Positions 1-40,688 of a DNA stretch of 64,000 nucleotides are shown here, in pieces. The notes beneath the pieces were generated by a model that was not told the DNA's origin, made no database searches, and worked only from the letters and a program-made list of their open reading frames with translations. The DNA is taken from the NCBI GenBank assembly GCA_031459385.1, contig JAVKIP010000003.1, positions 113,006 through 177,005 of the forward strand. Reading direction: 5' to 3'. Position 1 is the stretch's first letter. The number at the start of each line of letters is the position of its first letter. The position numbers and the translations under genes are program-made. Origin of the DNA: Candidatus Fervidifonticultor secundus (GTDB lineage: Bacteria; Sysuimicrobiota; Sysuimicrobiia; Sysuimicrobiales; Humicultoraceae).

Positions 1-206
1 CGCCGGTGCTCTTCGTCGAGATCCCCACCGACTTCACCGCGGTCCGGAGCCGGGACCGCGGGCTGGCGCAGGCCTGGCGGCTGGCCACGCGCCAGGTCTT
101 CCCGCACTATTTCGCCCGCGGGTACCGGGCGGTCGACTTCCTCCTGCGCCCGGACGACCGGCTCCGCGGCGACTATGTGTTGGTCGGAGGCGCCCATGCG
201 GATTGA
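1..206 (+). CDS. 3' end of a gene entering from upstream; possibly a GNAT-like acyltransferase (tentative)
   Basis: The frame is open to the left window edge (...VEIPTDFTAVRSRDRGLAQAWR...RGYRAVDF...). The stop TGA 204-206 overlaps the next gene start (ATGCGGATTGA). The family call is only a guess, based on the known GNAT succinyltransferase / N-succinylamino-acid racemase gene pairing. Confidence 0.35.
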   Translation, partial: PVLFVEIPTDFTAVRSRDRGLAQAWRLATRQVFPHYFARGYRAVDFLLRPDDRLRGDYVLVGGAHAD

Positions 207-24086: not shown

Positions 24087-24176
24087 CCCTCTTCGGTAGC
24101 CCGGCCGACCCGCCGACACAGCCGGGTCCCGCAGCTTTGCGCCCCCGGATCGCTCCGGGGTCAGCCCGTTCGGAGG
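24087..24176 (-). promoter_or_regulatory. c-di-GMP-I (GEMM-I)-like riboswitch, copy A, leader of module 1
   Basis: The minus-strand RNA is CCUCCGAACGGGCUGACCCCGGAGCGAUCCGGGGGCGCAAAGCUGCGGGACCCGGCUGUGUCGGCGGGUCGGCCGGGCUACCGAAGAGGG. It shares the GGC(A/U)(A)ACC - hairpin - GGG(A/G)CGCAAAGC - hairpin - GGGYUACCGA layout that I recall from GEMM-I (for example Vc2). Two further copies occur in the window. Confidence 0.7.
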
Positions 24177-25133: not shown

Positions 25134-25862
25134 ATGCACCGCCGGTGGGCACTGTTGCTATGGAGCAGGAGTCGCGACGTCCTCCGACAATGGCCACCCC
25201 GGAGCGATCCGGGGGCGCAAAGTCCCAGGGCCCGCGCGATCCGCGGGCTGGCTGCACTGCCGAAGAGGGCGACGTGTGAGTCATGCCAGGGCACACGCGC
25301 TGGCTCGGAGGCGAGGACCATCACGTCCAGGGCGCGAGACGGATTCACCCTGCTGGAAACCCTGATCGTTGTGGCGGTGCTGGGCCTGCTCCTGGGCTTC
25401 TCTGTGCCCCTCTACCGCGGCTCCCTGGCCGACCGCGCCGTCTGGAACGCCGCCTTTCAGGTCCAGAACGACCTCCGGCTGGCGCAGCAGGTCGCCCTCG
25501 CCAGGGCAGGGCGCGGGCCGAGGGTGGAGCTGTGCTTCCTGAGCGCGAACCATGACGCCGGCTACGAGATCTACACGGTGGACTACACCGACCGGTTTGC
25601 GCGGACGGGCGCGGTGATCGGCCAGACGGTGAAGGTCGTCAGGGCCGGCGAGGCCTTCCGCACCGGCCTCGACGTGGACGTGGAGGCAGGGGCAACGCAG
25701 GCCTGCCTGGCCGGTGGCGGCAGACCGGCACTGGTCTACCTGAGCACGGGCAGCCCGACGTTTGCCACCGAGCGGCGCATCACCCTTACCTATCAGGGCC
25801 GCTCGCGGTGCGTCACGATCACCCCCACGACGGGCCGCGCCACGGCGGGGCGGTGTCCGTGA
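25134..25862 (+). CDS. Module 2 H: FimT/GspH-like prepilin-type minor pilin (start unresolved)
   Basis: The signal is ...SRARDG|FTLLETLIVVAVLGLLLG, followed by AAFQVQNDLRLAQQVA. The only canonical in-frame start is ATG 25134, which lies upstream of the riboswitch-like element. The real start is probably downstream (see findings). Confidence 0.6.
   Translation: MHRRWALLLWSRSRDVLRQWPPRSDPGAQSPRARAIRGLAALPKRATCESCQGTRAGSEARTITSRARDGFTLLETLIVVAVLGLLLGFSVPLYRGSLADRAVWNAAFQVQNDLRLAQQVALARAGRGPRVELCFLSANHDAGYEIYTVDYTDRFARTGAVIGQTVKVVRAGEAFRTGLDVDVEAGATQACLAGGGRPALVYLSTGSPTFATERRITLTYQGRSRCVTITPTTGRATAGRCP
25181..25269 (+). promoter_or_regulatory. c-di-GMP-I (GEMM-I)-like riboswitch, copy B, leader of module 2
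   Basis: CCUCCGACAAUGGCCACCCCGGAGCGAUCCGGGGGCGCAAAGUCCCAGGGCCCGCGCGAUCCGCGGGCUGGCUGCACUGCCGAAGAGGG. It has the same conserved blocks as copies A and C, with a different but still self-complementary second hairpin. Confidence 0.7.
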
Positions 25863-32610: not shown

Positions 32611-32700
32611 CCTCCGACAAAGGCTACCCCGGAGCGATCCGGCGGGCGCAAAGCTCCAGAACCCGGGTTCTCCCAGGTTGGCTGAGCTACCGAAGAGGGG
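32611..32700 (+). promoter_or_regulatory. c-di-GMP-I (GEMM-I)-like riboswitch, copy C, leader of module 4
   Basis: CCUCCGACAAAGGCUACCCCGGAGCGAUCCGGCGGGCGCAAAGCUCCAGAACCCGGGUUCUCCCAGGUUGGCUGAGCUACCGAAGAGGGG. GTG 32707 follows after 6 nt. Confidence 0.7.
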
Positions 32701-32706
32701 AGAGTT

Positions 32707-33231
32707 GTGGGAACTGCCTTCTGCAGAGCCACGCGCACGGGCTCGAGCCCGTCCGCTCCGCACCGCACGCGCCGAATCCCACACGGTGCTCGTCAGGCGC
32801 CCTCTGGGCGCTGGCAGGCCGGGTACACGGTCCTGGAGCTGCTCATCGTCTCGGCGATCGGCCTGCTGGTGCTGTCGTTCGGGGTCGGCAGCATCAGCCG
32901 GGCCATGGCCCGCGAGGAGCTGGATGGCTGGGCCCGGGCCATCGCCGTCGAACTCACGGCCGCCCAGCAGGCGGCCATGACGCGCCGGACCAGCGTCACG
33001 GTGTCGTTCCAGAACAACGCCTTCATCGTGGTGGCCAGCGGCGGCGGCACGCTGCGCGCGCAGGACCTGCCGTCCCACATCAGCTTCGGCGCCACGCTGC
33101 AGACGGTGACGTTCGACCGGCGGGGGGTGCCAGGCGGCGCGTCCTCCGTATCGCTGACGAGCACGCGCGCCGGGAAGACCTACACCATCACGATCCAGCC
33201 CAACACGGGACGGGTGACCGCAGATGGCTGA
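32707..33231 (+). CDS. Module 4 H: FimT/GspH-like prepilin-type minor pilin
   Basis: GTG 32707 follows directly after the AGAGGGG of the leader element. The signal is ...SGRWQAG|YTVLELLIVSAIGLLVL, followed by ARAIAVELTAAQQAA. Confidence 0.7.
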   Translation: MGTAFCRATRTGSSPSAPHRTRRIPHGARQAPSGRWQAGYTVLELLIVSAIGLLVLSFGVGSISRAMAREELDGWARAIAVELTAAQQAAMTRRTSVTVSFQNNAFIVVASGGGTLRAQDLPSHISFGATLQTVTFDRRGVPGGASSVSLTSTRAGKTYTITIQPNTGRVTADG

Positions 33232-33661
33232 CCGCCCGCGCGCCCGCCGCGCCAGCGGCGGGTTCACCCTGATCGAGGTCGTCGTCGCCATGGCCGTGCT
33301 CTCCCTGGTGGCCACCACCGCGCTGGGCGGGCTGCTGTTCACCATGACCCAGACCCGGCGCGGCTTCGACCGGGCCCAGGCCGCGGCATGGGTCCAGGCC
33401 GAGCTGGACTTCCTGCGCACCATGGGGTACGGGCTGGCGCCGGGGACGCGCACTGTGCCCACTGACGGCTATCTGGCCAACAGCGACCTGCAGGAACCGC
33501 GGATTCCCGACGGGTTCGACCGGGCCGAGATCGTCGTCGAGGACCTCACCGGCAGCCTGGGCATTCCCCTGAAGTCCATGACGGTGCGCCTGTACCAGAC
33601 GCCGACCTCCCCGCCCTACACGATCCTCGTCACGTATGTGGCGAACTTCGACTACCCGTGA
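33224..33661 (+). CDS. Module 4 V: PilV/GspI-like prepilin-type minor pilin
   Basis: The signal is MADRPRARRASGG|FTLIEVVVAMAVLSLV. It overlaps the H gene by 8 nt. Confidence 0.8.
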   Translation: MADRPRARRASGGFTLIEVVVAMAVLSLVATTALGGLLFTMTQTRRGFDRAQAAAWVQAELDFLRTMGYGLAPGTRTVPTDGYLANSDLQEPRIPDGFDRAEIVVEDLTGSLGIPLKSMTVRLYQTPTSPPYTILVTYVANFDYP

Positions 33662-34371
33662 GCGGACCAGCGATGCGCCGGCCTGGGGCAGCACGGCACG
33701 GACAGGCGGGGATCTCCCTCGTCGAGGTCATGGTGGCCATGGTCATCATGACGGTCGTCATCGGGACGATCGCGACGCTGGTGGGCGCGTCGGTCCGCAG
33801 CAAGATGATCGTGGCCAGCCGGTCCTCCGACACGGAGACGGCACGCCAGACGCTGGAGATGATGTCCGAGCGGCTGCGCAACGCGGGGCTGAACATCGAC
33901 CCTGCGGCCCAGCCCGACCGCTGCGACGACATGGTCGTGGCCAAGGACCCGGCCCTGCGGCCGACGGCGACCCAGCTCTACGTGGCCGGCGAGATCTTCA
34001 ACTCGAACACGACCGCGGGCGACCAGGTGATCGTGCTGGGCTACCGGCTCACCGGCGGCCGGATCGTCGAGGACCGCAGCGCGTGCGGCGTATGGGCTCC
34101 GACGACCAGCGATGTCTCGAACCCCGGGATCACGGTGACGAGCCTGCTCTTCCGGTACTTCGGCTCAAGCGGCGGCGAGATCACCGTACCCACAACCGAC
34201 GAGGAGGCGATCCGGAGCATCCGCGTGGTGCAGATCAGCCTCACGGTCCGGGCCGAGGAGGGACGGTCGGGCGCCCAGATCCAGCGCTTCAGCCGGCAGG
34301 TGATGCTGCGCAACCCCCGGCCGGACCGCAGTGGCTGGCTGCCGCCGGCCGGATGGGAGACGAATCCATGA
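33658..34371 (+). CDS. Module 4 W: PilW/GspJ-like prepilin-type minor pilin
   Basis: GTG 33658 overlaps the upstream stop (GTGA). The signal is ...ARHGQAG|ISLVEVMVAMVIMTVVIG. Confidence 0.75.
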   Translation: MSGPAMRRPGAARHGQAGISLVEVMVAMVIMTVVIGTIATLVGASVRSKMIVASRSSDTETARQTLEMMSERLRNAGLNIDPAAQPDRCDDMVVAKDPALRPTATQLYVAGEIFNSNTTAGDQVIVLGYRLTGGRIVEDRSACGVWAPTTSDVSNPGITVTSLLFRYFGSSGGEITVPTTDEEAIRSIRVVQISLTVRAEEGRSGAQIQRFSRQVMLRNPRPDRSGWLPPAGWETNP

Positions 34372-35777
34372 AAAGAGGCACGATGCGGCCCGCCGGCGCC
34401 GGGCGCCTGCGCCGCACGCCGGCGGGCGGCCAGGCTGGCGCGGCGCTGCTCTCGGTGGTGCTCTTCCTGCTGCTGATCCTGATGGTCACGGTGGGTGTCA
34501 TGGCGGTGGTCCGCAGCGACCTGGCGGCCGGCATCCGCCAGCAGCAGGCCGTGCAGGTCTTCAACGTGGCGGAGGCGGGCGTGCACTACGCCATCGCGCG
34601 CCTGCAGACCTCTGGGGCGAACCGGTACGACGGGGCCACGGTCCCCATCACCGACGGCAGCACCACCATCGGGACCGCCACCATCCAGGTCCGCTGCCTG
34701 GACGGCACCCTCCCGAGCGCCAGCGCCTGCAACGGTGCCGAGCCGGCCTACCGGCGGATCGCCTCCACCGGAACGCTCACGGTGGCAGGACCCCGTCGGG
34801 TGGTGACGGCGGTGGTCGAGGGCACGACCTCAGTGACACGGACCTACGCGGTGTGCGCCTACGACGCCCTGACCCTCGACCAGCAGGTGACGGTCTACGG
34901 GTCGGTGGGCACCAACGGCATTATGACGCTCAGCGGGCCCAACAACCTCAACCGTGCGGCGATCTGCGACTCCACCCCGGGCGGGCTGGGCGGCCGGTGC
35001 GGCACGCCCAATCCCGCACCCGCCAGCTCGTTCACGGCCGGCGCCTCCGCCGTGGGGACCATCACGTGCAACGGGGGCGGCTGTGCCAACCAGGTGGAAG
35101 GGCCGACGACACCCAACCAGCCGGCCGGGTCGGTATGCCCGACGGTCACGCTCCCGGGCTGGGGGCCCCCGGGCACCACGCCCCTGTCGGTGCCCCTCGG
35201 CAGCACGGTGTTCGCCAACCCCGCCACCAACTACGGCTCCGTGACGCTGGCGGATACGCCCGGCAACCCCAACCCCTGCCCGTCGGACCCCGCGCAGCGC
35301 GCCACGCTGGTGCTGGACGCGGGCAGCGACCCCACCGCGACGGTCACGTTCCAGATGGCCACGCTGTCGGTCGGCAAGTGCGCCCGCGTCGAGATCCGCG
35401 GGCAGGGGAAGGTCGAACTGCGGTTGCTCGCGCCGACCACCACGGCGCTGCGCACCGTCCAGCGCTCGGTCCTGGGGACCACCTCGCAGACCGTCGGCAG
35501 CGAGGTGGCCGTGGAGGGCCACCGGTTCACGGTCAAGGTGGTGTCCACCCACTCGACCGCCGCCGTCGACTTCAACCAGTCGGGCTTGATCGCCGGCACG
35601 TTCATCGTGCCCAACGGCGGGTTCCACCTGGACCAGGCACAGATCACCAACGGCGCGATCCTGGCGAGGGCCGTCGACTTCGACCAGGGCACCACCTTCA
35701 CGTGGGACCCGCGGTCGATCATCGGCGACCAGGTCTACGGCGACTTTCGCCGGCTGCGAGCCTGGAAGGACCAGTAG
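34368..35777 (+). CDS. Module 4 X: PilX/GspK-like minor pilin (469 aa)
   Basis: ATG 34368 overlaps the upstream stop (ATGA). The N-terminus is ...PAGGQAG|AALLSVVLFLLLILMVTVGVMAVVRSDLAAGIRQQQAVQVFNVAEAGVHYA. The C-terminus is ...FRRLRAWKDQ. Confidence 0.7.
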   Translation: MKRGTMRPAGAGRLRRTPAGGQAGAALLSVVLFLLLILMVTVGVMAVVRSDLAAGIRQQQAVQVFNVAEAGVHYAIARLQTSGANRYDGATVPITDGSTTIGTATIQVRCLDGTLPSASACNGAEPAYRRIASTGTLTVAGPRRVVTAVVEGTTSVTRTYAVCAYDALTLDQQVTVYGSVGTNGIMTLSGPNNLNRAAICDSTPGGLGGRCGTPNPAPASSFTAGASAVGTITCNGGGCANQVEGPTTPNQPAGSVCPTVTLPGWGPPGTTPLSVPLGSTVFANPATNYGSVTLADTPGNPNPCPSDPAQRATLVLDAGSDPTATVTFQMATLSVGKCARVEIRGQGKVELRLLAPTTTALRTVQRSVLGTTSQTVGSEVAVEGHRFTVKVVSTHSTAAVDFNQSGLIAGTFIVPNGGFHLDQAQITNGAILARAVDFDQGTTFTWDPRSIIGDQVYGDFRRLRAWKDQ

Positions 35778-35798: not shown

Positions 35799-35846
35799 CA
35801 CACGCCGGGTGACGCCGCGCCCGCGTCACCCGGCGTTGTGTTTGTC
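35799..35846 (+). terminator. Intrinsic terminator after module 4 (hairpin shared with convergent ppa)
   Basis: CACACGCCGGGTGACGC (35799-35815) pairs with GCGTCACCCGGCGTTGTG (35823-35840) to give a 17-bp stem with one bulged T. The stem is followed by TTTGT. The ppa stop codon lies inside the 3' arm. Confidence 0.55.
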
Positions 35847-36437
35847 GCCGGTCCCGCGTCCTGTGCCCCGAGGCGAAGGAGAGCGCCGCGCGCTATCGAC
35901 AGCCGTTGTGGCGGGCGGCGATCCGGATCGGATGGGTCGCAGACGGCCCGTCGCGAACCGCTCCCGCGCTTCCGCTACTAGCCGCCAGGCCTCGGGGGCC
36001 GGAGCCCAGCCGTAGATCTCGACCGCCTTCTCCTCCAGGGTCTTGTACACGGTGAAGAAGTGCTCGACCTCTTTCAGGAAGTGGGGCGGCACGCCGTTCA
36101 GGTCGGTGACGTCCGCAAAGCGCGGGTCACCCACGGGCACCGCCAGGATCTTCTGGTCGACGCCCTTCTCGTCCCGCATGTTCAGGACGCCGATGGGTCG
36201 TACCTCGACCAGGCACCCCGGGAACGTTGGCTCGTAGGTGAAAATCAGGACGTCCAGGTGGTCGCCGTCCTCCGCCAGGGTCTCCTCAATGAACCCGTAG
36301 TCGGCCGGGTAGTGCAGCGGCGAGTAGAGCACGCGGTCCAGGCGCAGCCGGCTGGCGGCGGCATCCCATTCGTACTTGTTGCGGCTGCCTCGCGCGATCT
36401 CCACCAACGCCCAGACGGTAGGCCCGGGCCGCGACAT
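35826..36437 (-). CDS. ppa: Inorganic pyrophosphatase (family I)
   Basis: ATG at 36437. VEIARGSRNKYEWD, PADYGFIEETLAEDGDHLDVL and MRDEKGVDQKILAVP are present. A C-terminal extension of roughly 35 aa runs into the terminator hairpin. Confidence 0.9.
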   Translation of the reverse strand: MSRPGPTVWALVEIARGSRNKYEWDAAASRLRLDRVLYSPLHYPADYGFIEETLAEDGDHLDVLIFTYEPTFPGCLVEVRPIGVLNMRDEKGVDQKILAVPVGDPRFADVTDLNGVPPHFLKEVEHFFTVYKTLEEKAVEIYGWAPAPEAWRLVAEARERFATGRLRPIRSGSPPATTAVDSARRSPSPRGTGRGTGDKHNAG

Positions 36438-36439
36438 GC

Positions 36440-36850
36440 TCACCCTCTCGCCTCCTCCACCGCGGCCAGGGTCTGGGCCAGCGCGGCCACCCGACGCCCC
36501 AGCTCGTCGCGGACCGCGCGGTAGCCCTCGAGCCCGCCGCCAGCGGGGTTGGGCAGCGGCCAGTGCTCGCTGCGTACGCCCGGCACCACCGGGCAGGCCT
36601 CCTCCGCGCACAGCCCCACGATCAGGGCCACGTCGGGGCCCAGCGCCGCCTCCAGGGCCACGGGCCGATGCTGGCTGATGTCGAGGCCGACCTCGCGCAT
36701 CGCCTCCACCGCTTCCGGACGCACGCGCTCGCCGGGTTCCGTGCCCGCGGAACCCGCCCGCCAGCCAGCCGGCGCCACCGCGTTGAACAGCGCGGCGGCC
36801 ATCGGCGAGCGGGCGGTGTTGTGATGTCAGACGAACAGGACGCGCGGCAT
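36440..36850 (-). CDS. arsC: Arsenate reductase (thioredoxin-coupled LMW-PTP/ArsC family) with in-frame TGA at the catalytic Cys codon (selenocysteine candidate or pseudogene)
   Basis: The minus strand reads ATG(36850) CCG CGC GTC CTG TTC GTC TGA(36829-36827) CAT CAC AAC ACC GCC CGC TCG, which translates MPRVLFV*HHNTARSPMAAALFN. This aligns with the P-loop (V/I)LF(V/I)C-x2-N-x2-RS of ArsC/LMW-PTP. Downstream, ...SAGTEP...GLCAEEACP keeps the two resolving Cys residues. The ORF track only reports the part after the TGA (36440-36802). Confidence 0.6.
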
Positions 36851-36953
36851 GGCTCCAGGATACCACAGGCCCGCGGCTACGCCCCGCCCGGCCGCACGGT
36901 GACACGGTGACAGGGACGCCCGGAGGGCCTAGCATCGAGGTGGAGGGGGTGCG

Positions 36954-37715
36954 ATGCTGCTCGCGCTGGACATCGGCAACACCAACGTCAAGCTCGGGGC
37001 ATTCCGAGGATCGGAGCTACTGGCGACCTGGCGGGTCGCGACCGATGCGCGGCGGACGCCGGATGAGTACGCGGCGCTGGTGGCAGCGCTGCTGGGCATG
37101 CGTGGGATGACCCCGGCGCGGGTGGAGCGGGTGGTGCTGTGCAGTGTCGTGCCGCCGCTCACCGCAGTGTTTCGCGAGGTTGCGCGCGACGTGTTTGGCG
37201 CGGTCCCGCTGGTCGTCGGCGAGAACGTCGAGACCGGGCTGCGCGTGCTCTACGACCCGCCCTCCGACGTCGGGGCCGACCGGCTGGTGGCGTCGACCGC
37301 GGCCTACCGGCGCCTGGGCGGACCGGTGATCGTGGTGGAGTTCGGAACCGCCACGGTGTTCGACGCGGTCTCGGATGCCGGCGAGTACCTCGGCGGCGCC
37401 ATCCACCCTGGCCTCCAGCTGGCGGCTGAGGCCCTGTTCACGGGCACCTCCCAGCTTCGTCGCATCGAGCTGCGTCGGCCGGCGGCGGCCATCGGCCGCA
37501 CGACAATTGCCGCGATCCAGTCCGGGGTGGTGCTGGGACACGTCGGCATGGTCGAGGGCATGGTTGCGCGGTTCCGGCGCGAGGTGGGCGAGCGCGCCCA
37601 GGTGGTGGCCACGGGCGGGCTCGCGCGGCTGATCGCCGCAGAGACGCCCGTCTTCGCTGCCGTCGACGAGGACCTGATCCTGCACGGCCTGCGGCTCATC
37701 GCCGAGGCCACCTGA
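36954..37715 (+). CDS. coaX: Type III pantothenate kinase
   Basis: MLLALDIGNTNVKLGAF, VGADRLV and VVEFGTATVFD are present. Confidence 0.9.
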   Translation: MLLALDIGNTNVKLGAFRGSELLATWRVATDARRTPDEYAALVAALLGMRGMTPARVERVVLCSVVPPLTAVFREVARDVFGAVPLVVGENVETGLRVLYDPPSDVGADRLVASTAAYRRLGGPVIVVEFGTATVFDAVSDAGEYLGGAIHPGLQLAAEALFTGTSQLRRIELRRPAAAIGRTTIAAIQSGVVLGHVGMVEGMVARFRREVGERAQVVATGGLARLIAAETPVFAAVDEDLILHGLRLIAEAT

Positions 37716-37753: not shown

Positions 37754-38977
37754 ATGCCCACGGTGCTCCACGGCAAACACATCGTCCTGGGGGTCACGGG
37801 CAGCATCGCGGCTTTCAAAGCCGCCGACCTGGCGAGCAAGCTCACGCAGCACGGCGCAGCTGTGGACGTAGTGCTCACGCCGGACGCCGCCCGGTTCGTC
37901 ACGCCGCTCACGTTCCAGGCCCTGACCCATCGCCCGGTCACCACCGACCTCTTCGACCCGCGGGCCGCGATCGCCATGGATCACGTGGCCCTGGCGCAGC
38001 GGGCCGACGTCATCGTCGTCTGCCCGGCGACGGCGCACACGCTGGCACGGCTGGCGCTGGGCCTGGCCGATGACGCGCTGGCGGCCACGGTGCTGGCTTC
38101 GCGCGCGCCGCTGGTGGTGGTTCCGGCGATGGACGCCCAGATGTTCGACCACCCGGCGGTGCAGGAGCACGTGGCGCGGCTGCACGCGCGGGGCGCCCGC
38201 ATCGTCGGCCCCATGGAGGGTCGGCTCGCCTCGGGGCTGGTTGGCCGCGGGCGCATGGCCGAGGTTCCGGAGGTGCTGGGCCACCTGCGCGCGGTGCTCG
38301 GCGCGGCGACCGGGGACCTGCGGGGTACGACGATCGTGGTGACCGCAGGCGGCACGCGAGAGCCGCTGGACCCCGTGCGGGTGCTGACCAACCGGTCGTC
38401 GGGCAAGATGGGCTACGCGGTGGCCGAGGCGGCCAGGGATCGCGGGGCGCGCGCGATCCTGATCACCGCGCCGACGGCGCTCCCCGACCCGCCGGGCGTG
38501 GACGTCCGACGGGTGGAGACCGCCCTGGAGATGCGGGAGGCCGTCCTGGCGGCCTGCCGCGATGCCGACGCCCTGGTCATGACCGCGGCGGTGGCCGACT
38601 ACCGCCCCGCGGCACCGGCCCCGCAGAAGGTGAAGAAGGGCGCGCCCACCTGGACCGTCGAGCTCGTGGAGACCCCCGACATCCTCACCGAGGCCGGCGC
38701 GGCCGCGCCGGCGCTGGTCCGGGTGGGCTTTGCCGCCGAGACGACGGACCTGGTGGCGGCCGCCCGCGCCAAACTGGTGCGCAAGGGGCTCGACCTGATC
38801 GCCGCCAACGACGTCTCGGCAGCCGGCAGTGGGTTCGGCGCCGACACGAACCGCCTGGTCCTCATCGATCGCGAGGGGCGGGTCGAGGACCTGCCCGTGC
38901 TCCCCAAGTTCGACGCCGCCTGGATCCTCCTGGACCGCGTCAGGGCCCTGCTGGCGTCTGGGTGGACGCGCCCCTAG
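37754..38977 (+). CDS. coaBC: Bifunctional phosphopantothenoylcysteine decarboxylase / phosphopantothenate-cysteine ligase
   Basis: The flavoprotein N-domain has GKHIVLGVTGSIAAFKAADLASKL. The C-domain has VTAGGTREPLDPVRVLTNRSSGKMG and AAVADYRP. Confidence 0.92.
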   Translation: MPTVLHGKHIVLGVTGSIAAFKAADLASKLTQHGAAVDVVLTPDAARFVTPLTFQALTHRPVTTDLFDPRAAIAMDHVALAQRADVIVVCPATAHTLARLALGLADDALAATVLASRAPLVVVPAMDAQMFDHPAVQEHVARLHARGARIVGPMEGRLASGLVGRGRMAEVPEVLGHLRAVLGAATGDLRGTTIVVTAGGTREPLDPVRVLTNRSSGKMGYAVAEAARDRGARAILITAPTALPDPPGVDVRRVETALEMREAVLAACRDADALVMTAAVADYRPAAPAPQKVKKGAPTWTVELVETPDILTEAGAAAPALVRVGFAAETTDLVAAARAKLVRKGLDLIAANDVSAAGSGFGADTNRLVLIDREGRVEDLPVLPKFDAAWILLDRVRALLASGWTRP

Positions 38978-39036
38978 CAGGGAACCGCCCGCGGCGATGG
39001 AATGCACACGTAGCCAGACCCAGGAGGACTCCCGGC

Positions 39037-39654
39037 ATGGCGTTGCGCCTGCTCCCCCGCGAGGAGATCTTCTTCGAGCTGTTCAACCAGGCGGCCGACA
39101 ACGTGCTCGAAGCCGCCCGCAAGCTGCAGGAACTGCTGGACGACTACAGGGACGTCGAGTCCCGTGCGGCCGCGATCAAGGCCCTGGAGGACCGCGGCGA
39201 CGAGCTCACCCACACCATCATCGACCGGCTCAACCGCACCTTCGTGGCGCCGCTGGACCGTGAGGACATCTTCGCGCTGGCCAAGCAGCTGGACGACGTC
39301 CTGGACTGGATCGAGGCCTCATCGGCGCGCATGGCCATCTACCACATCGCGCGCGCCACGCCCGAGGCCCGCGAGCTGGGCCACATCATCGCCAGCGCCT
39401 GCCAGGCCATCGTCGAGGCGATCCGCGATCTCCGCCGGCTCGACCGGGTCGGCGCCACGCTCCGCGAGATCAACCGGCTCGAGAACCTGGCCGACCATGT
39501 GCAGCGCGATGCCATCGCCAAACTGTTCGCCGCCGGCGGCGACCCCATCGAGATCATCAAGTGGAAAGAGGTCTACGAAACGCTGGAAGAGGCCACCGAC
39601 CAGGCCGAGCATGTCGCGCACCTGCTCGAGGGCATGCAGGCCAAGCATCTCTAG
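39037..39654 (+). CDS. DUF47 family (PhoU-like) phosphate-transport regulator
   Basis: ATG 39037 follows CAGGAGGA. FFELFNQAADNV, EDRGDELTH, FVAPLDREDI and the pairing with a Pit-type transporter support the call. Confidence 0.8.
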   Translation: MALRLLPREEIFFELFNQAADNVLEAARKLQELLDDYRDVESRAAAIKALEDRGDELTHTIIDRLNRTFVAPLDREDIFALAKQLDDVLDWIEASSARMAIYHIARATPEARELGHIIASACQAIVEAIRDLRRLDRVGATLREINRLENLADHVQRDAIAKLFAAGGDPIEIIKWKEVYETLEEATDQAEHVAHLLEGMQAKHL

Positions 39655-39692
39655 GAGGCGCCGCTGGCTGGCCGGCCGTCCCCCCCTCGCTG

Positions 39693-40688
39693 ATGCCGAC
39701 CGTCCTCCCCCTGGGGTTGCTGCCCGTCCTGGTGCTGGTGCTGGCCGCCGAGTTCGTCAACGGGTGGACCGACGCGCCCAACGCCATCGCCACGGTGGTC
39801 TCCACCCGGGTCCTGACGCCGTCAGTGGCGGTCGTCGTCGCCACGGTCCTCAACGTGGTCGGCGTGATGTCGGGCACCGCCGTGGCCGCCACCATCGGCA
39901 CGGGGATCGTGCGGGCCGACGTCATCGACCCGGTCACCATCGCGGCGGCCATGACGGCCATCGTCATCTGGAGCACGCTGGCATGGCTGCGCGGGCTGCC
40001 GACCAGCGAGAGCCACGCGCTGGTCGCCTCGCTGGCCGGCGCCGGCCTGGCCACCGCCGGGCCCGCCGCCCTGCTGTGGGACGGCTGGCGCAAGGTGCTG
40101 CTCGGCCTGGGCTTCTCGACCCTGCTGGGCTTCGCCGGCGGCTTCCTGTTGATGCTCACGATCAGCTGGCTGTTCCGGCGCACGCCGCTGGGAGCGGTCC
40201 GCCGGCTGTTCGGGCGGCTGCAGATCCTGTCGGCAGGCTTCATGGCCTTCAGCCACGGCAGCAACGACGGGCAGAAGTTCATGGGGGTCTTCGTCCTGAC
40301 GCTGGTGCTGGGGGGTGTGCTGCCGGAGTTCCGGATCCCCTTCTGGGTGATCGTGCTGTGCGCGCTGACCATGGGGCTGGGCACGGCCCTCGGGGGCTGG
40401 CGCATCGTGCACACCATGGGCATGCGGCTGACCAAGCTGGAGCCCTTCCAGGGCTTCTCCGCCGAAACGGCGGCCGCCACGGCCATCGAGGCGGCCAGCC
40501 GGCTGGGCATTCCGGTCAGCACGACCCACACGATCAACACCGCCATCATGGGGGTCGGGGCGACCCGCCGCCTGTCCGCGGTGCGCTGGGGCGTGGGTCT
40601 GGAGATTGTGACCGCGTGGATCCTCACGTTTCCGGTCTGCGCGCTCGTGGCCGCCGTGGTCGCGCGGTGCCTGCGGGCCGTGTTCTGA
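39693..40688 (+). CDS. pit: Inorganic phosphate transporter (PiT/PHO4 family)
   Basis: ATG 39693. AAEFVNGWTDAPNAIATVVSTR and FSHGSNDGQKFMGV are the duplicated PHO4 signatures. Confidence 0.88.
   Translation: MPTVLPLGLLPVLVLVLAAEFVNGWTDAPNAIATVVSTRVLTPSVAVVVATVLNVVGVMSGTAVAATIGTGIVRADVIDPVTIAAAMTAIVIWSTLAWLRGLPTSESHALVASLAGAGLATAGPAALLWDGWRKVLLGLGFSTLLGFAGGFLLMLTISWLFRRTPLGAVRRLFGRLQILSAGFMAFSHGSNDGQKFMGVFVLTLVLGGVLPEFRIPFWVIVLCALTMGLGTALGGWRIVHTMGMRLTKLEPFQGFSAETAAATAIEAASRLGIPVSTTHTINTAIMGVGATRRLSAVRWGVGLEIVTAWILTFPVCALVAAVVARCLRAVF

What the first reader, a model, noticed from the sequence alone, without database searches (positions are those of the whole stretch)
36752..36850. In-frame TGA at the catalytic cysteine codon of ArsC, with a downstream hairpin: selenocysteine candidate
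The minus strand reads ATG CCG CGC GTC CTG TTC GTC TGA CAT CAC AAC ACC GCC CGC TCG, which translates M P R V L F V [TGA] H H N T A R S. In thioredoxin-coupled ArsC/LMW-PTP enzymes this position is the nucleophilic Cys of the C-x5-R-S P-loop, and the two downstream resolving Cys residues (GLCAEEACP) are intact. A TGA exactly replacing a redox-active Cys is the classic signature of a Sec/Cys pair. As far as I recall, arsenate-reductase-like selenoproteins have been reported in metagenomic selenoproteome surveys.

A possible SECIS-like structure follows:
- ten nt after the TGA, an extended helix begins, with ACCGCCCGC pairing to GCGGGCGG(G)U
- it encloses a 9-bp stem, GCCGCCGCG / CGCGGUGGC
- that stem has an 8-nt apical loop, CUGUUCAA, which contains GU, at about 37 nt from the TGA

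These distances lie at the edge of the range described for bacterial SECIS elements. The alternative is a simple TGC/TGT-to-TGA nonsense mutation, which would make this a pseudogene with possible re-initiation at Met17.
Basis: partly seen in the sequence, partly recalled or inferred. Interest (0 to 1): 0.65.

Follow-up and report, generated by a model that had tools for sequence, protein, structure and literature searches.

The report
Selenocysteine arsenate reductase with split SECIS
The in-frame TGA is almost certainly a real selenocysteine codon at the catalytic site of a phosphatase-fold arsenate reductase, kept in more than 60 hot-spring and soil bacteria, and this enzyme type is missing from the selenoprotein catalogue checked here.

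Summary
On the minus strand an ATG (36850-36848) opens a 136-codon LMW-PTP/ArsC reading frame, and its 8th codon is TGA (36829-36827), at the P-loop nucleophile.

It is not a nonsense mutation:
- All 62 related genes recovered from genomes and metagenomes (56-86% identical) carry TGA there, never TAA, TAG or a sense codon.
- The seven codons before it and the codons after it are conserved as protein.
- More distant homologues (34-58%) carry TGC or TGT.
- Gene callers truncate about 118 of the 120 best database hits.

Two adjacent RNA hairpins follow the TGA. This second hairpin occurs only in TGA forms and is degraded in Cys forms.

Seven related contigs also carry a known selenoprotein gene (TIGR02187). 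The selA/B/C/D genes could not be checked in this genome.

The 2026 catalogue of 119 prokaryotic selenoprotein families lists only the unrelated PF03960-type arsenate reductases. The gene sits among phosphate-uptake genes, not in an ars operon.

The parts
36853..36856 (-). Shine-Dalgarno-like GGAG in front of the upstream ATG
   Evidence: Read directly from the sequence. An SD-like motif precedes the upstream start in at least 23 of 35 loci, and precedes the internal 'Met17' in none of 35.
36440..36850 (-). Full reading frame of the ArsC-like gene: 136 codons with TGA at codon 8, then stop TGA at 36442-36440
   Evidence: Translation. Pfam PF01451 E=3.7e-20. Closest solved structure is 1Y1L, Archaeoglobus fulgidus ArsC, E=1.5e-20, followed by the pI258 ArsC entries.
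36827..36829 (-). In-frame TGA at the P-loop nucleophile (U-x5-R-S): proposed selenocysteine codon
   Evidence: TGA in 34 of 34 genome loci and 28 of 28 close metagenome loci. Cys (TGC/TGT) at the aligned codon in distant homologues. It aligns with Cys10 of pI258 ArsC.
36758..36816 (-). Its base helix P1 pairs 36814-36808 with 36762-36756, and its apical loop is at 36790-36783.
   Evidence: Minimum-free-energy fold. A hairpin loop lies at columns 40-53 in 52 of 52 sequences. In P1, pair 18/72 switches from C-G (43) to G-C (7). This stretch folds better than synonymous-codon resamples in 32 of 33 Sec genes (mean z -1.74), against -0.13 in 45 Cys homologues.
36733..36756 (-). Hairpin 2 (P2): 9 bp in the window, conserved 6-bp core at 36753-36736, loop CGGGCA at 36747-36742. 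This is the proposed SelB-binding part of the SECIS.
   Evidence: -15.9 kcal/mol, z=-3.33. 98.4% of cells are paired in 52 sequences. Pair 78/93 shows six pair types and pair 81/90 changes from C-G to U-A in L110. Codons Ser26 TCC, Ala27 GCG and Thr29 ACG have no synonymous variation in 34 genome-derived sequences. All 6 pairs form in 47 of 52 TGA forms and 5 in the rest; 4 or fewer form in 57 of 58 Cys forms.
36608..36610 (-). Cys81 codon, equivalent to Cys82 of pI258 ArsC
   Evidence: Invariant in 40 aligned proteins. Aligned to the pI258 ArsC structures.
36593..36595 (-). Cys86 codon, equivalent to Cys89 of pI258 ArsC
   Evidence: Invariant in 40 aligned proteins. Aligned to the pI258 ArsC structures.
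35826..36443 (-). Inorganic pyrophosphatase gene. Its GTG start (36443-36441) overlaps the arsC stop as GTGA.
   Evidence: Sequence. Pfam Pyrophosphatase matches the homologue that lies directly downstream in 8 related loci and in L085.
38962..40688 (+). Phosphate context near the gene: PhoU_div (DUF47) followed by a PHO4/Pit phosphate transporter
   Evidence: Pfam PF01865 E=4.8e-27 and PF01384 E=8.4e-89.

Best explanation
The TGA at codon 8 is a selenocysteine codon in an intact, expressed gene for a 136-residue arsenate reductase of the LMW-PTP fold (thioredoxin-coupled type).

How the recoding would work. Translation starts at the ATG at 36850. When the ribosome reaches UGA, SelB carrying Sec-tRNA(Sec) is recruited by mRNA structure just downstream, and Sec is inserted as the P-loop nucleophile (U-HHNTA-R-S). 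The structure is two adjacent hairpins:
- a long, variable hairpin that starts 10-12 nt after UGA;
- one or two nt after its base, a short hairpin with an invariant CGGGNA loop.

I propose that the short hairpin is the SelB-binding element and that folding of the long hairpin brings it to working distance. Its loop is 79 nt from UGA along the chain, but 20 nt if the long hairpin is looped out. The ordinary SECIS of a neighbouring selenoprotein gene in the same lineage has its loop at 21 nt.

How the enzyme would work. The selenolate of Sec8 attacks arsenate. Cys81 then forms a Se-S bond and releases arsenite. Cys86 resolves this to a Cys81-Cys86 disulfide, which thioredoxin reduces. The gene is linked to phosphate uptake genes (pst, phoU, pit, ppa), which fits detoxification of arsenate that enters through phosphate transporters.

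Shown here: conservation of the TGA, protein-level constraint on both sides of it, and RNA-level constraint that occurs only together with the TGA.
Inferred: Sec insertion itself, SelB binding to hairpin 2, the role of hairpin 1 as a spacer, and arsenate as the substrate.
For: 1. TGA, and no other stop or sense codon, is at the catalytic codon in 34 of 34 species-representative genome loci and 28 of 28 close metagenome loci. Each has an ATG, GTG or CTG seven codons upstream and the conserved peptide xRVLFV-U-xxNxARSQMAE.
2. Synonymous sites vary freely in the seven codons before the TGA and in most codons after it, while the amino acids are kept.
3. About 118 of the 120 best database proteins start at or just after the TGA. 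This is the usual mark of selenoprotein genes truncated by gene callers. Only two are full length, and both have Cys.
4. The gene's own stop is TGA, so the genome uses TGA as a stop codon.
5. RNA structure:
   - The P1+P2 helices are 95.7% paired against 90.4 +/- 0.5% in shuffles (0 of 500), and 32-47% when the partners are slid.
   - Compensatory changes occur at pairs 18/72, 78/93 and 81/90.
   - Ser26, Ala27 and Thr29 show zero synonymous variation.
   - P2 is complete or nearly so in 52 of 52 TGA forms and absent in 57 of 58 Cys forms.
   - The two closest Cys-form relatives carry exactly the synonymous changes that break it (TCC to TCG, ACG to ACA, CGC to CGT).
6. P2 meets the bacterial SECIS rules for loop size, stem length and a G followed by G at loop positions 2-3 (rules from PMC13188914).
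7. Seven related contigs carry a second in-frame-TGA gene of a known selenoprotein family, TIGR02187 (232 bits against a cut-off of 185; motif VFVTPT-U-PHCP). It has a canonical SECIS, GCGGCC-AGGCU-GGCCGC, 21 nt after UGA.
8. Published work reports selABCD genes in about 90% of genomes with Sec-type group 4 hydrogenases, a set spanning nine phyla that includes MAGs labelled Armatimonadota, as several relatives found here are; for 5/5 of its UXXU-type Armatimonadota genomes it reports canonical selC (PMC13582414).
9. Enzyme type: PF01451. The closest solved structures are ArsC proteins. The P-loop and both resolving Cys residues align, and the two Cys are invariant.
Against: - No selA, selB, selD or tRNA-Sec gene is in the 64-kb window or in any fetched flank. 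The rest of the genome could not be searched.
- Along the chain, the P2 loop lies 79 nt from UGA, outside the 16-37 nt of the published bacterial SECIS model. The looping-out idea is untested.
- RNAalifold alone gave no strong consensus structure on the first 90 nt.
- The sequences are related to one another, so the shuffle statistics overstate independence.
- Enzyme assignment: the NCBIfam ArsC equivalog scores are far below cut-off (68.9 against 174.3). The general-acid Asp of pI258 ArsC is Asn in the window. No ars operon genes are nearby.
- No RNA or protein evidence exists. The one metatranscriptome from the same study has no contig on the gene.
Confidence: 0.8

Rival explanations
1. The UGA is recoded, but to cysteine rather than selenocysteine. 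A tRNA-ReC (SelC*) type tRNA would be delivered by SelB to the same SECIS, so the product would be an ordinary Cys enzyme.
For: PMC13582414 reports tRNA-ReC-like tRNAs, in addition to canonical selC, in 5 of 5 'Armatimonadota' genomes that carry UXXU-type NiFeSe hydrogenases. Several relatives found here carry that phylum label. Every piece of sequence evidence gathered here fits this reading as well as it fits Sec.
Against: Canonical selC was present in those same genomes. It is hard to see why selection would keep UGA plus about 95 nt of constrained RNA in more than 60 lineages when one base change gives TGC, a change that does occur and is then followed by decay of the hairpin. No tRNA of this type was seen in any sequence held here.
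Confidence: 0.1
2. Sec is inserted, but the working SECIS is the apex of the long hairpin. Its loop lies about 37 nt after UGA. Hairpin 2 would then serve another purpose, such as mRNA stability or pausing.
For: The long hairpin is present in 52 of 52 sequences, with its loop at columns 40-53. It folds better than synonymous resamples only in TGA forms. Its position along the chain is at the edge of the published 16-37 nt range.
Against: [quoted passage not shown] Many loops (for example UCUUCAAC) contain no G at all. The loop and upper stem vary in register and sequence. By contrast, the P2 loop bases C83, G84-G86 and A88 are invariant in 52 of 52 sequences, and its stem shows compensatory changes.
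Confidence: 0.2
3. The locus is a nonsense-disrupted arsC, either a pseudogene or a truncated product re-initiated at Met17.
For: Gene callers predict a 120-residue product starting at Met17. No Sec machinery was seen in the window.
Against: The same TGA is in 62 of 62 relatives at 56-86% identity, and the upstream peptide and start codon are conserved. A product starting at Met17 would lack the entire catalytic P-loop. No SD-like motif precedes Met17 in any of 35 loci, and that codon is Ile or Val in L003, L004, L017 and L020. Sequencing error is excluded by seven independent assemblies.
Confidence: 0.02
4. The UGA is read through at a low level by a near-cognate or suppressor tRNA (for example Trp), without SelB.
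For: UGA is the leakiest stop codon (general knowledge). No Sec machinery was observed directly.
Against: Any residue other than Cys or Sec at the P-loop nucleophile would inactivate the enzyme. The strict co-occurrence of the TGA with the downstream hairpins points to a structure-dependent mechanism.
Confidence: 0.03

Closest known systems
Thioredoxin-coupled arsenate reductase of the LMW-PTP fold (S. aureus pI258 ArsC, B. subtilis ArsC; nearest solved structure Archaeoglobus fulgidus ArsC, PDB 1Y1L)
   Same: Same fold family (PF01451). Same P-loop pattern, nucleophile-x5-R-S. Both downstream redox cysteines are present and invariant. 1Y1L also shares the motifs xIHNTARS, CEESSC (C-x4-C) and NPAG.
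   Different: The nucleophile codon is TGA instead of TGC/TGT. The Cys pair is spaced C-x4-C, not the C-x6-C of pI258. The pI258 general-acid Asp is Asn in the window and varies between Asn and Asp in the clade. Scores fall below the NCBIfam equivalog cut-offs. The gene lies among pst/phoU/pit/ppa genes, not in an ars operon.
Previously described 'arsenate reductase' selenoproteins (ArsC 1: pfam03960/TIGR00014, UxxS; ArsC 2 or arsenate reductase-like: cd03032/NF041106, UxxC)
   Same: They carry the same enzyme name and the same principle of Sec replacing a catalytic Cys. They too were found by in-frame TGA in metagenomes (PMC1088965, PMC2398784, PMC13188914).
   Different: They have a different, non-homologous fold (ArsC/Spx, thioredoxin-like) and different motifs. 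The window protein matches none of these models at E<=0.01.
Bacterial SECIS consensus model (Zhang and Gladyshev; summarised in PMC13188914)
   Same: Hairpin 2 has a 6-nt apical loop, a stem of 6-9 bp, G followed by G at loop positions 2-3, and -15.9 kcal/mol, so it meets those rules.
   Different: Its loop is 79 nt from UGA along the chain, not 16-37 nt. A hairpin of about 59 nt lies in between. The distance becomes 20 nt only if that hairpin is looped out.
TIGR02187 protein disulfide oxidoreductase selenoprotein (homologue of the AhpF N-terminal domain), found in related contigs
   Same: It occurs in the same lineage, often about 4 kb from the Sec-arsC, and also has UGA at a redox Cys. Its SECIS loop AGGCU shares the N-G-G start with the P2 loop CGGGNA.
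   Different: It is a catalogued selenoprotein family with an ordinary single-hairpin SECIS 21 nt after UGA. It is not present in the window itself.

Membership tests
Bacterial selenoprotein gene | In-frame UGA aligned with Cys in homologues | tested here: met
   TGA in the window and in 62 relatives; TGC or TGT in 58 more distant or Cys-form homologues.
Bacterial selenoprotein gene | Coding constraint on both sides of the UGA, with a usable start codon upstream | tested here: met
   Conserved peptide with variable synonymous sites before and after the TGA. ATG, GTG or CTG seven codons upstream in all loci, with an SD-like motif in at least 23 of 35.
Bacterial selenoprotein gene | Downstream stem-loop with a 3-9 nt apical loop, a 4-16 bp stem and G in the first two loop positions | tested here: met
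   Hairpin 2: loop CGGGNA, 6-9 bp, invariant G84-G86, compensatory changes in the stem. The apex of hairpin 1 meets the G rule in only 10 of 52 sequences.
Bacterial selenoprotein gene | 16-37 nt between UGA and the apical loop | tested here: inconclusive
   Hairpin 2 is at 79 nt along the chain (not met), or 20 nt if hairpin 1 is looped out. The apex of hairpin 1 is at 36-42 nt, which is borderline.
Bacterial selenoprotein gene | selA, selB, selC and selD in the same genome | not testable with these tools
Indirect support: a TIGR02187 selenoprotein gene in seven related contigs, and published selABCD genes in most Sec-type genomes of a set that includes 'Armatimonadota' MAGs, with canonical selC in 5/5 of these (PMC13582414).
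Bacterial selenoprotein gene | Selenium incorporated into the protein | not testable with these tools
   Needs 75Se labelling or mass spectrometry.
Thioredoxin-coupled ArsC (LMW-PTP fold, pI258 type) | LMW-PTP fold | tested here: met
   PF01451 E=3.7e-20 over residues 4-124. Sequence matches to ArsC structures 1Y1L, 1LJL, 1JL3 and others.
Thioredoxin-coupled ArsC (LMW-PTP fold, pI258 type) | P-loop C-x5-R-(S/T) with the nucleophile in first position | tested here: met
   U-HHNTA-R-S, aligned with Cys10 and the P-loop of pI258 ArsC. Sec stands in place of Cys.
Thioredoxin-coupled ArsC (LMW-PTP fold, pI258 type) | Two downstream redox cysteines (Cys82 and Cys89 equivalents) | tested here: met
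   C81 and C86 are invariant in 40 proteins and align with the pI258 residues. The spacing is C-x4-C, as in 1Y1L.
Thioredoxin-coupled ArsC (LMW-PTP fold, pI258 type) | General-acid Asp in the D-P motif (Asp105 of pI258) | tested here: not met
   The window has N-P (LPNPAG). The clade varies between Asn and Asp, and 1Y1L also has Asn.
Thioredoxin-coupled ArsC (LMW-PTP fold, pI258 type) | Score above the curated equivalog cut-off (TIGR02691 / NF010053) | tested here: not met
   68.9 bits against a cut-off of 174.3, and 75.5 against 215. The protein is therefore a divergent subfamily.
Thioredoxin-coupled ArsC (LMW-PTP fold, pI258 type) | ars operon context (arsR, arsB/acr3 and similar) | tested here: not met
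   The neighbours are pstSCAB, phoU, ppa, PhoU_div and Pit. No ars genes appeared among the recurrent neighbours.
Thioredoxin-coupled ArsC (LMW-PTP fold, pI258 type) | Arsenate reductase activity with thioredoxin | not testable with these tools
   Needs an enzyme assay.
Known Sec-containing arsenate reductases (PF03960: TIGR00014; NF041106/cd03032) | Homology to the ArsC/Spx fold models | tested here: not met
   No match to PF03960, TIGR00014 or NF041106 at E<=0.01.

The most novel reading that the evidence does not exclude
Two linked claims make up the most novel reading.

1. This is the first natural selenoenzyme of the protein-tyrosine-phosphatase superfamily, with Sec as the P-loop nucleophile.
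2. Its UGA is decoded through a discontinuous bacterial SECIS. The SelB-binding hairpin lies 79 nt downstream and is brought to the canonical distance of about 20 nt because an intervening hairpin of about 59 nt folds out of the path.

If true, the second claim would widen the search space that bacterial selenoprotein finders allow, which is currently 16-37 nt.
Probability: 0.4. Interest if true: 0.8.

Novelty: new member of a known kind. Interest (0 to 1): 0.68.

Why it matters
- **A missing family.** The gene adds a widespread selenoprotein family, with more than 100 database clusters at 90% identity, mostly in Candidatus Sysuimicrobiota (CSP1-3) and MAGs labelled 'Armatimonadota' from hot springs, soil and groundwater. 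Annotation pipelines currently truncate it and name it plain 'arsenate reductase ArsC'. The 2026 catalogue of 119 prokaryotic selenoprotein families does not list it.
- **New chemistry.** It places selenium in the nucleophile position of a C-x5-R phosphatase-type P-loop. That offers a natural system for comparing Se and S in arsenate or phosphate ester chemistry.
- **A gap in search tools.** Its downstream RNA suggests that some bacterial SECIS elements are built from two hairpins. If so, distance-limited search tools would miss such genes.
- **Physiology.** The linkage to phosphate uptake genes suggests arsenate detoxification coupled to phosphate import in arsenic-rich springs.

Tried and rejected
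- **Rfam.** No SECIS or other family matched the region. The only hit was chance-level (Xoo5, E=3.5).
- **RNAalifold.** On the first 90 nt it gave a weak consensus (-4.6 kcal/mol), because the alignment stopped inside hairpin 2 and the register of hairpin 1 varies.
- **Sec machinery.** I searched the window and about 140 fetched loci with ARAGORN for tRNA-Sec, and by tblastn with E. coli SelA, SelB and SelD. Nothing turned up except a SelB-like hit beside a Cys-type gene in an Acidobacteriota MAG.
- **Alternative helices.**
  - A helix between columns 17-21 and 82-86 is possible, but it conflicts with P2 and is not compensated where column 18 changes.
  - A helix pairing UCGUCUG (which includes the UG of UGA) with CAGAUGG is at least 85% conserved but shows almost no covariation, so it may simply follow from the conserved peptide.
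- **Structure prediction.** I did not pursue this, because sequence matches to solved ArsC structures already fix the fold.
- **Expression.** The one metatranscriptome from the same study has no contig on the gene, which is uninformative.
- **Other selenoprotein genes in the window.** A heuristic scan for in-frame TGA found none.
Full report
**Observation**

On the minus strand the window reads ATG (36850-36848) CCG CGC GTC CTG TTC GTC TGA (36829-36827) CAT CAC AAC ACC GCC CGC TCG. Reading through the TGA gives a 136-residue protein, MPRVLFV-U-HHNTARSPMAAALFN...GLCAEEACP..., which ends at TGA 36442-36440.
- It matches Pfam LMWPc (PF01451, E=3.7e-20).
- It matches the NCBIfam ArsC models, but below their cut-offs.
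- The closest solved structures are arsenate reductases: 1Y1L from Archaeoglobus fulgidus (E=1.5e-20) and the pI258 and B. subtilis ArsC entries. In those alignments the TGA falls on the P-loop nucleophile (Cys10), and Cys81 and Cys86 fall on Cys82 and Cys89.

The TGA is not an artefact. Seven independent assemblies of hot-springs metagenome runs carry the identical 54 nt, and two DNA runs match 36300-37000 without a difference.

**Is the TGA a mutation or a codon?**

Protein databases gave the first hint. Of the 120 best hits, about 114 begin at the Met that corresponds to Met17. Four begin at an alternative start immediately after the TGA position. Only two (P0014 and P0018) are full length, and both have Cys.

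I then fetched the DNA.
- Among one-genome-per-species contigs, 34 loci at 56-86% protein identity all have TGA at this codon. Each has ATG, GTG or CTG seven codons upstream and the conserved peptide xRVLFV-U-xxNxARSQMAE. The 45 more distant loci (39-50% identity; Gemmatimonadota, Acidobacteriota, Myxococcota and others) have Cys.
- A metagenome scan added 28 more TGA forms and 16 Cys forms.

Synonymous sites vary in the codons before the TGA (Arg has 5 codons, Val 3, Leu 5) and in most codons after it, while the amino acids are kept. The whole frame is therefore translated.

An SD-like motif precedes the upstream start in at least 23 of 35 loci and never precedes 'Met17'. That codon is Ile or Val in four loci. 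The gene's own terminator is TGA, so the genome has not reassigned the codon. A nonsense-mutation pseudogene is excluded for practical purposes.

**RNA structure**

Columns below are counted from the T of TGA as column 1. The window coordinate is 36830 minus the column number.

- Its shape is conserved: a hairpin loop lies at columns 40-53 in 52 of 52 sequences.
- Its base helix P1 (columns 16-22 with 68-74) shows a clean compensatory switch at pair 18/72, C-G in 43 sequences and G-C in 7.
- I resampled synonymous codons using each locus's own codon usage. Columns 10-78 (+9 to +78) fold better than expected in 32 of 33 TGA genes (mean z -1.74). In 45 Cys homologues they do not (mean z -0.13; Mann-Whitney p=1.7e-7; the sequences are phylogenetically related, so this overstates independence).
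- Its apical loop is a poor SECIS loop. [quoted passage not shown]

*Hairpin 2 (P2)* emerged from the synonymous-site entropy.
- Arg6 (CGC), Ser26 (TCC), Ala27 (GCG) and Thr29 (ACG) never vary in 34 sequences. Other Arg, Ser, Ala and Thr codons in the gene show 1.2-2.3 bits. Cys homologues use AGC for that Ser and a mix of codons for the Ala.
- The invariant codons 26-29 form a second hairpin. Columns 77-82 pair with columns 89-94, and the loop at columns 83-88 reads CGGGNA. In the window it is 9 bp long (36756-36733), at -15.9 kcal/mol and z=-3.33.
- Pair 78/93 is formed in 52 of 52 sequences using six pair types: C-G 35, G-C 12, A-U 2, U-A 1, G-U 1, U-G 1. The third base of codon 25 covaries with the third base of codon 30, and even with the Glu/Asp choice there.
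- In L110, pair 81/90 has changed from C-G to U-A, through Ser TCT together with Thr ACA.

*Statistics for P1 and P2 together.*
- 95.7% of cells are paired, against 90.4 +/- 0.5% in shuffles (0 of 500) and 32-47% in the slid controls.
- The covariation score is 0.134, against 0.041 in shuffles (0 of 500).

*P2 tracks the TGA.*
- All six pairs form in 47 of 52 TGA forms, and five in the other 5.
- Four or fewer pairs form in 57 of 58 Cys forms.
- The two closest Cys-form relatives carry exactly the synonymous changes that break it: L083 has TCG; L085 has TCG, ACA and Arg CGT. L085 keeps the same pstCAB-phoU-arsC-ppa gene order.

**SECIS interpretation (inferred)**

P2 meets the published bacterial SECIS rules for loop size, stem length, energy and a G followed by G early in the loop. 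It fails the distance rule of 16-37 nt, because its loop is 79 nt from the UGA.

Hairpin 1 starts 10-12 nt after the UGA and ends 1-2 nt before P2. If hairpin 1 is folded, the path from the UGA to the P2 loop is 20 nt.

A second selenoprotein gene in the same lineage has an ordinary SECIS, GCGGCC-AGGCU-GGCCGC, with its loop 21 nt after the UGA and the same N-G-G loop start.

I therefore propose a two-hairpin SECIS in which P2 binds SelB and hairpin 1 sets the spacing. I put about 0.55 on P2 being the SelB site and about 0.4 on the looping-out geometry.

**Does the lineage use Sec?**

No selA, selB, selD or tRNA-Sec gene is in the window or in any flank. The rest of the genome could not be searched, so the decisive test was not run. 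The indirect evidence is as follows.
- Seven related contigs (L006, L009, L015, L019, L022, L024, L097) carry an in-frame TGA at VFVTPT-U-PHCP in a gene scoring 232 bits on TIGR02187 (cut-off 185). This is a catalogued selenoprotein family (PMC13188914).
- A 2026 study found Sec-type NiFeSe hydrogenases in nine phyla, including MAGs labelled Armatimonadota. It detected selABCD (allowing one missing gene) in about 90% of the Sec-type genomes, and canonical selC in 5/5 of its UXXU-type Armatimonadota genomes (PMC13582414).
- The same study found tRNA-ReC-like tRNAs in 5 of 5 of those genomes. These can read a SECIS-dependent UGA as Cys, so Cys recoding is a live rival (about 0.1).

**Taxonomy and habitat**

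The named relatives are Candidatus Fervidifonticultor, Ca. Calidihabitans and Ca. Geohabitans, 'Armatimonadota bacterium' and 'Bacillati bacterium ANGP1'. Ca. Fervidifonticultor belongs to Candidatus Sysuimicrobiota, formerly CSP1-3. The window sequence comes from hot-springs metagenomes. The two CSP1-3 genome papers mention arsC and fdhA but not selenocysteine.

**Function and context**

The two redox cysteines are invariant, which marks the reductase branch of the LMW-PTP family rather than a plain phosphatase.

The recurrent neighbours are not ars genes. They are pstS, pstC, pstA, pstB and phoU (12-13 loci) and an inorganic pyrophosphatase directly downstream. In the window the ppa start overlaps the arsC stop as GTGA, and a PhoU_div plus PHO4/Pit pair lies 2 kb away.

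Arsenate enters cells through phosphate transporters (established knowledge). An arsenate reductase co-located with phosphate uptake genes is therefore plausible, but the substrate is inferred.

The protein also departs from the pI258 type in three ways: Asn replaces the general-acid Asp, the Cys pair is spaced C-x4-C, and the equivalog scores are below cut-off.

**Comparison with what is known**

'Arsenate reductase' selenoproteins have been reported since 2005, but they are pfam03960/TIGR00014 (UxxS) and cd03032/NF041106 (UxxC). That is the ArsC/Spx fold, which is unrelated to PF01451 (PMC1088965, PMC2398784). The window protein matches none of these models.

The 2026 inventory of 119 prokaryotic selenoprotein families has no PF01451, LMW-PTP or phosphatase entry. 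NCBI and JGI records for members of this clade are truncated and named 'arsenate reductase (ArsC)'. I could not query BSepDB or NCBI directly, so an unpublished annotation cannot be excluded.

**Verdict**

This is a genuine, conserved recoded UGA, most likely selenocysteine, in a functional LMW-PTP-type ArsC. It is a new member of the known class of Cys/Sec enzyme pairs. Its downstream RNA element is unusually arranged and deserves an experimental test.

Noticed in passing
L006 (TGA at about 5758, minus strand), L009 (2629), L015 (1919), L019, L022, L024 (2716), L097: A second selenoprotein gene lies about 4 kb from the Sec-arsC in seven related contigs. It is a TIGR02187 protein disulfide oxidoreductase with an in-frame TGA at VFVTPT-U-PHCP and a canonical SECIS, GCGGCC-AGGCU-GGCCGC. 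As a thioredoxin-fold protein it could be a redox partner of the ArsC. It is not present in the window.
   Followed up: partly
window 38962-40688; L002, L007, L010, L017, L085 and others: The Sec-arsC is embedded in phosphate-homeostasis genes (pstSCAB-phoU upstream, ppa downstream, PhoU_div plus Pit in the window) rather than in an ars operon.
   Followed up: partly
window 24092-24176 (-), 25182-25264 (+), 32612-32694 (+): Three c-di-GMP-I riboswitch aptamers score above Rfam's gathering score. The third lies just upstream of ORFs with prepilin-type N-termini (for example GFTLIEVVVAMAVLS, at 32707-35777).
   Followed up: no
window 39962-40043 (+): ARAGORN calls a tRNA-Gly(GCC) inside the PHO4/Pit reading frame. 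This is probably a false positive in G+C-rich coding sequence.
   Followed up: no
window 36440-36443: The arsC stop TGA overlaps the GTG start of the pyrophosphatase gene as GTGA. This suggests translational coupling, which would need ribosomes to read through codon 8.
   Followed up: no
window 36799-36834 (columns -4..2 with 25..31): A 7-bp helix, UCGUCUG with CAGAUGG, would include the UG of the UGA codon. It is at least 85% conserved in 34 sequences but shows almost no covariation, so it may just reflect the conserved peptide.
   Followed up: partly
L022, L023, L025 (three contigs of MAG DASXUC01); L011 and L034 (MAG DATDEG01): Some MAGs carry several copies of the Sec-arsC on different contigs. 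L034 holds a copy whose N-terminal part, including the TGA region, is replaced by unrelated sequence. That may be a pseudogene or an assembly join.
   Followed up: no
L054 183-1193: A SelB-like GTPase hit (28% identity to E. coli SelB over 341 residues) lies about 4 kb from a Cys-type arsC in an Acidobacteriota MAG.
   Followed up: no
protein P0100 (database entry, source 'src'): This is a full-length database protein with the odd N-terminus MPTGLFGLVGNRARS, where its relatives read VPTVLFV-TGA-VGNRARS. It looks like a translation or prediction artefact across the TGA.
   Followed up: no
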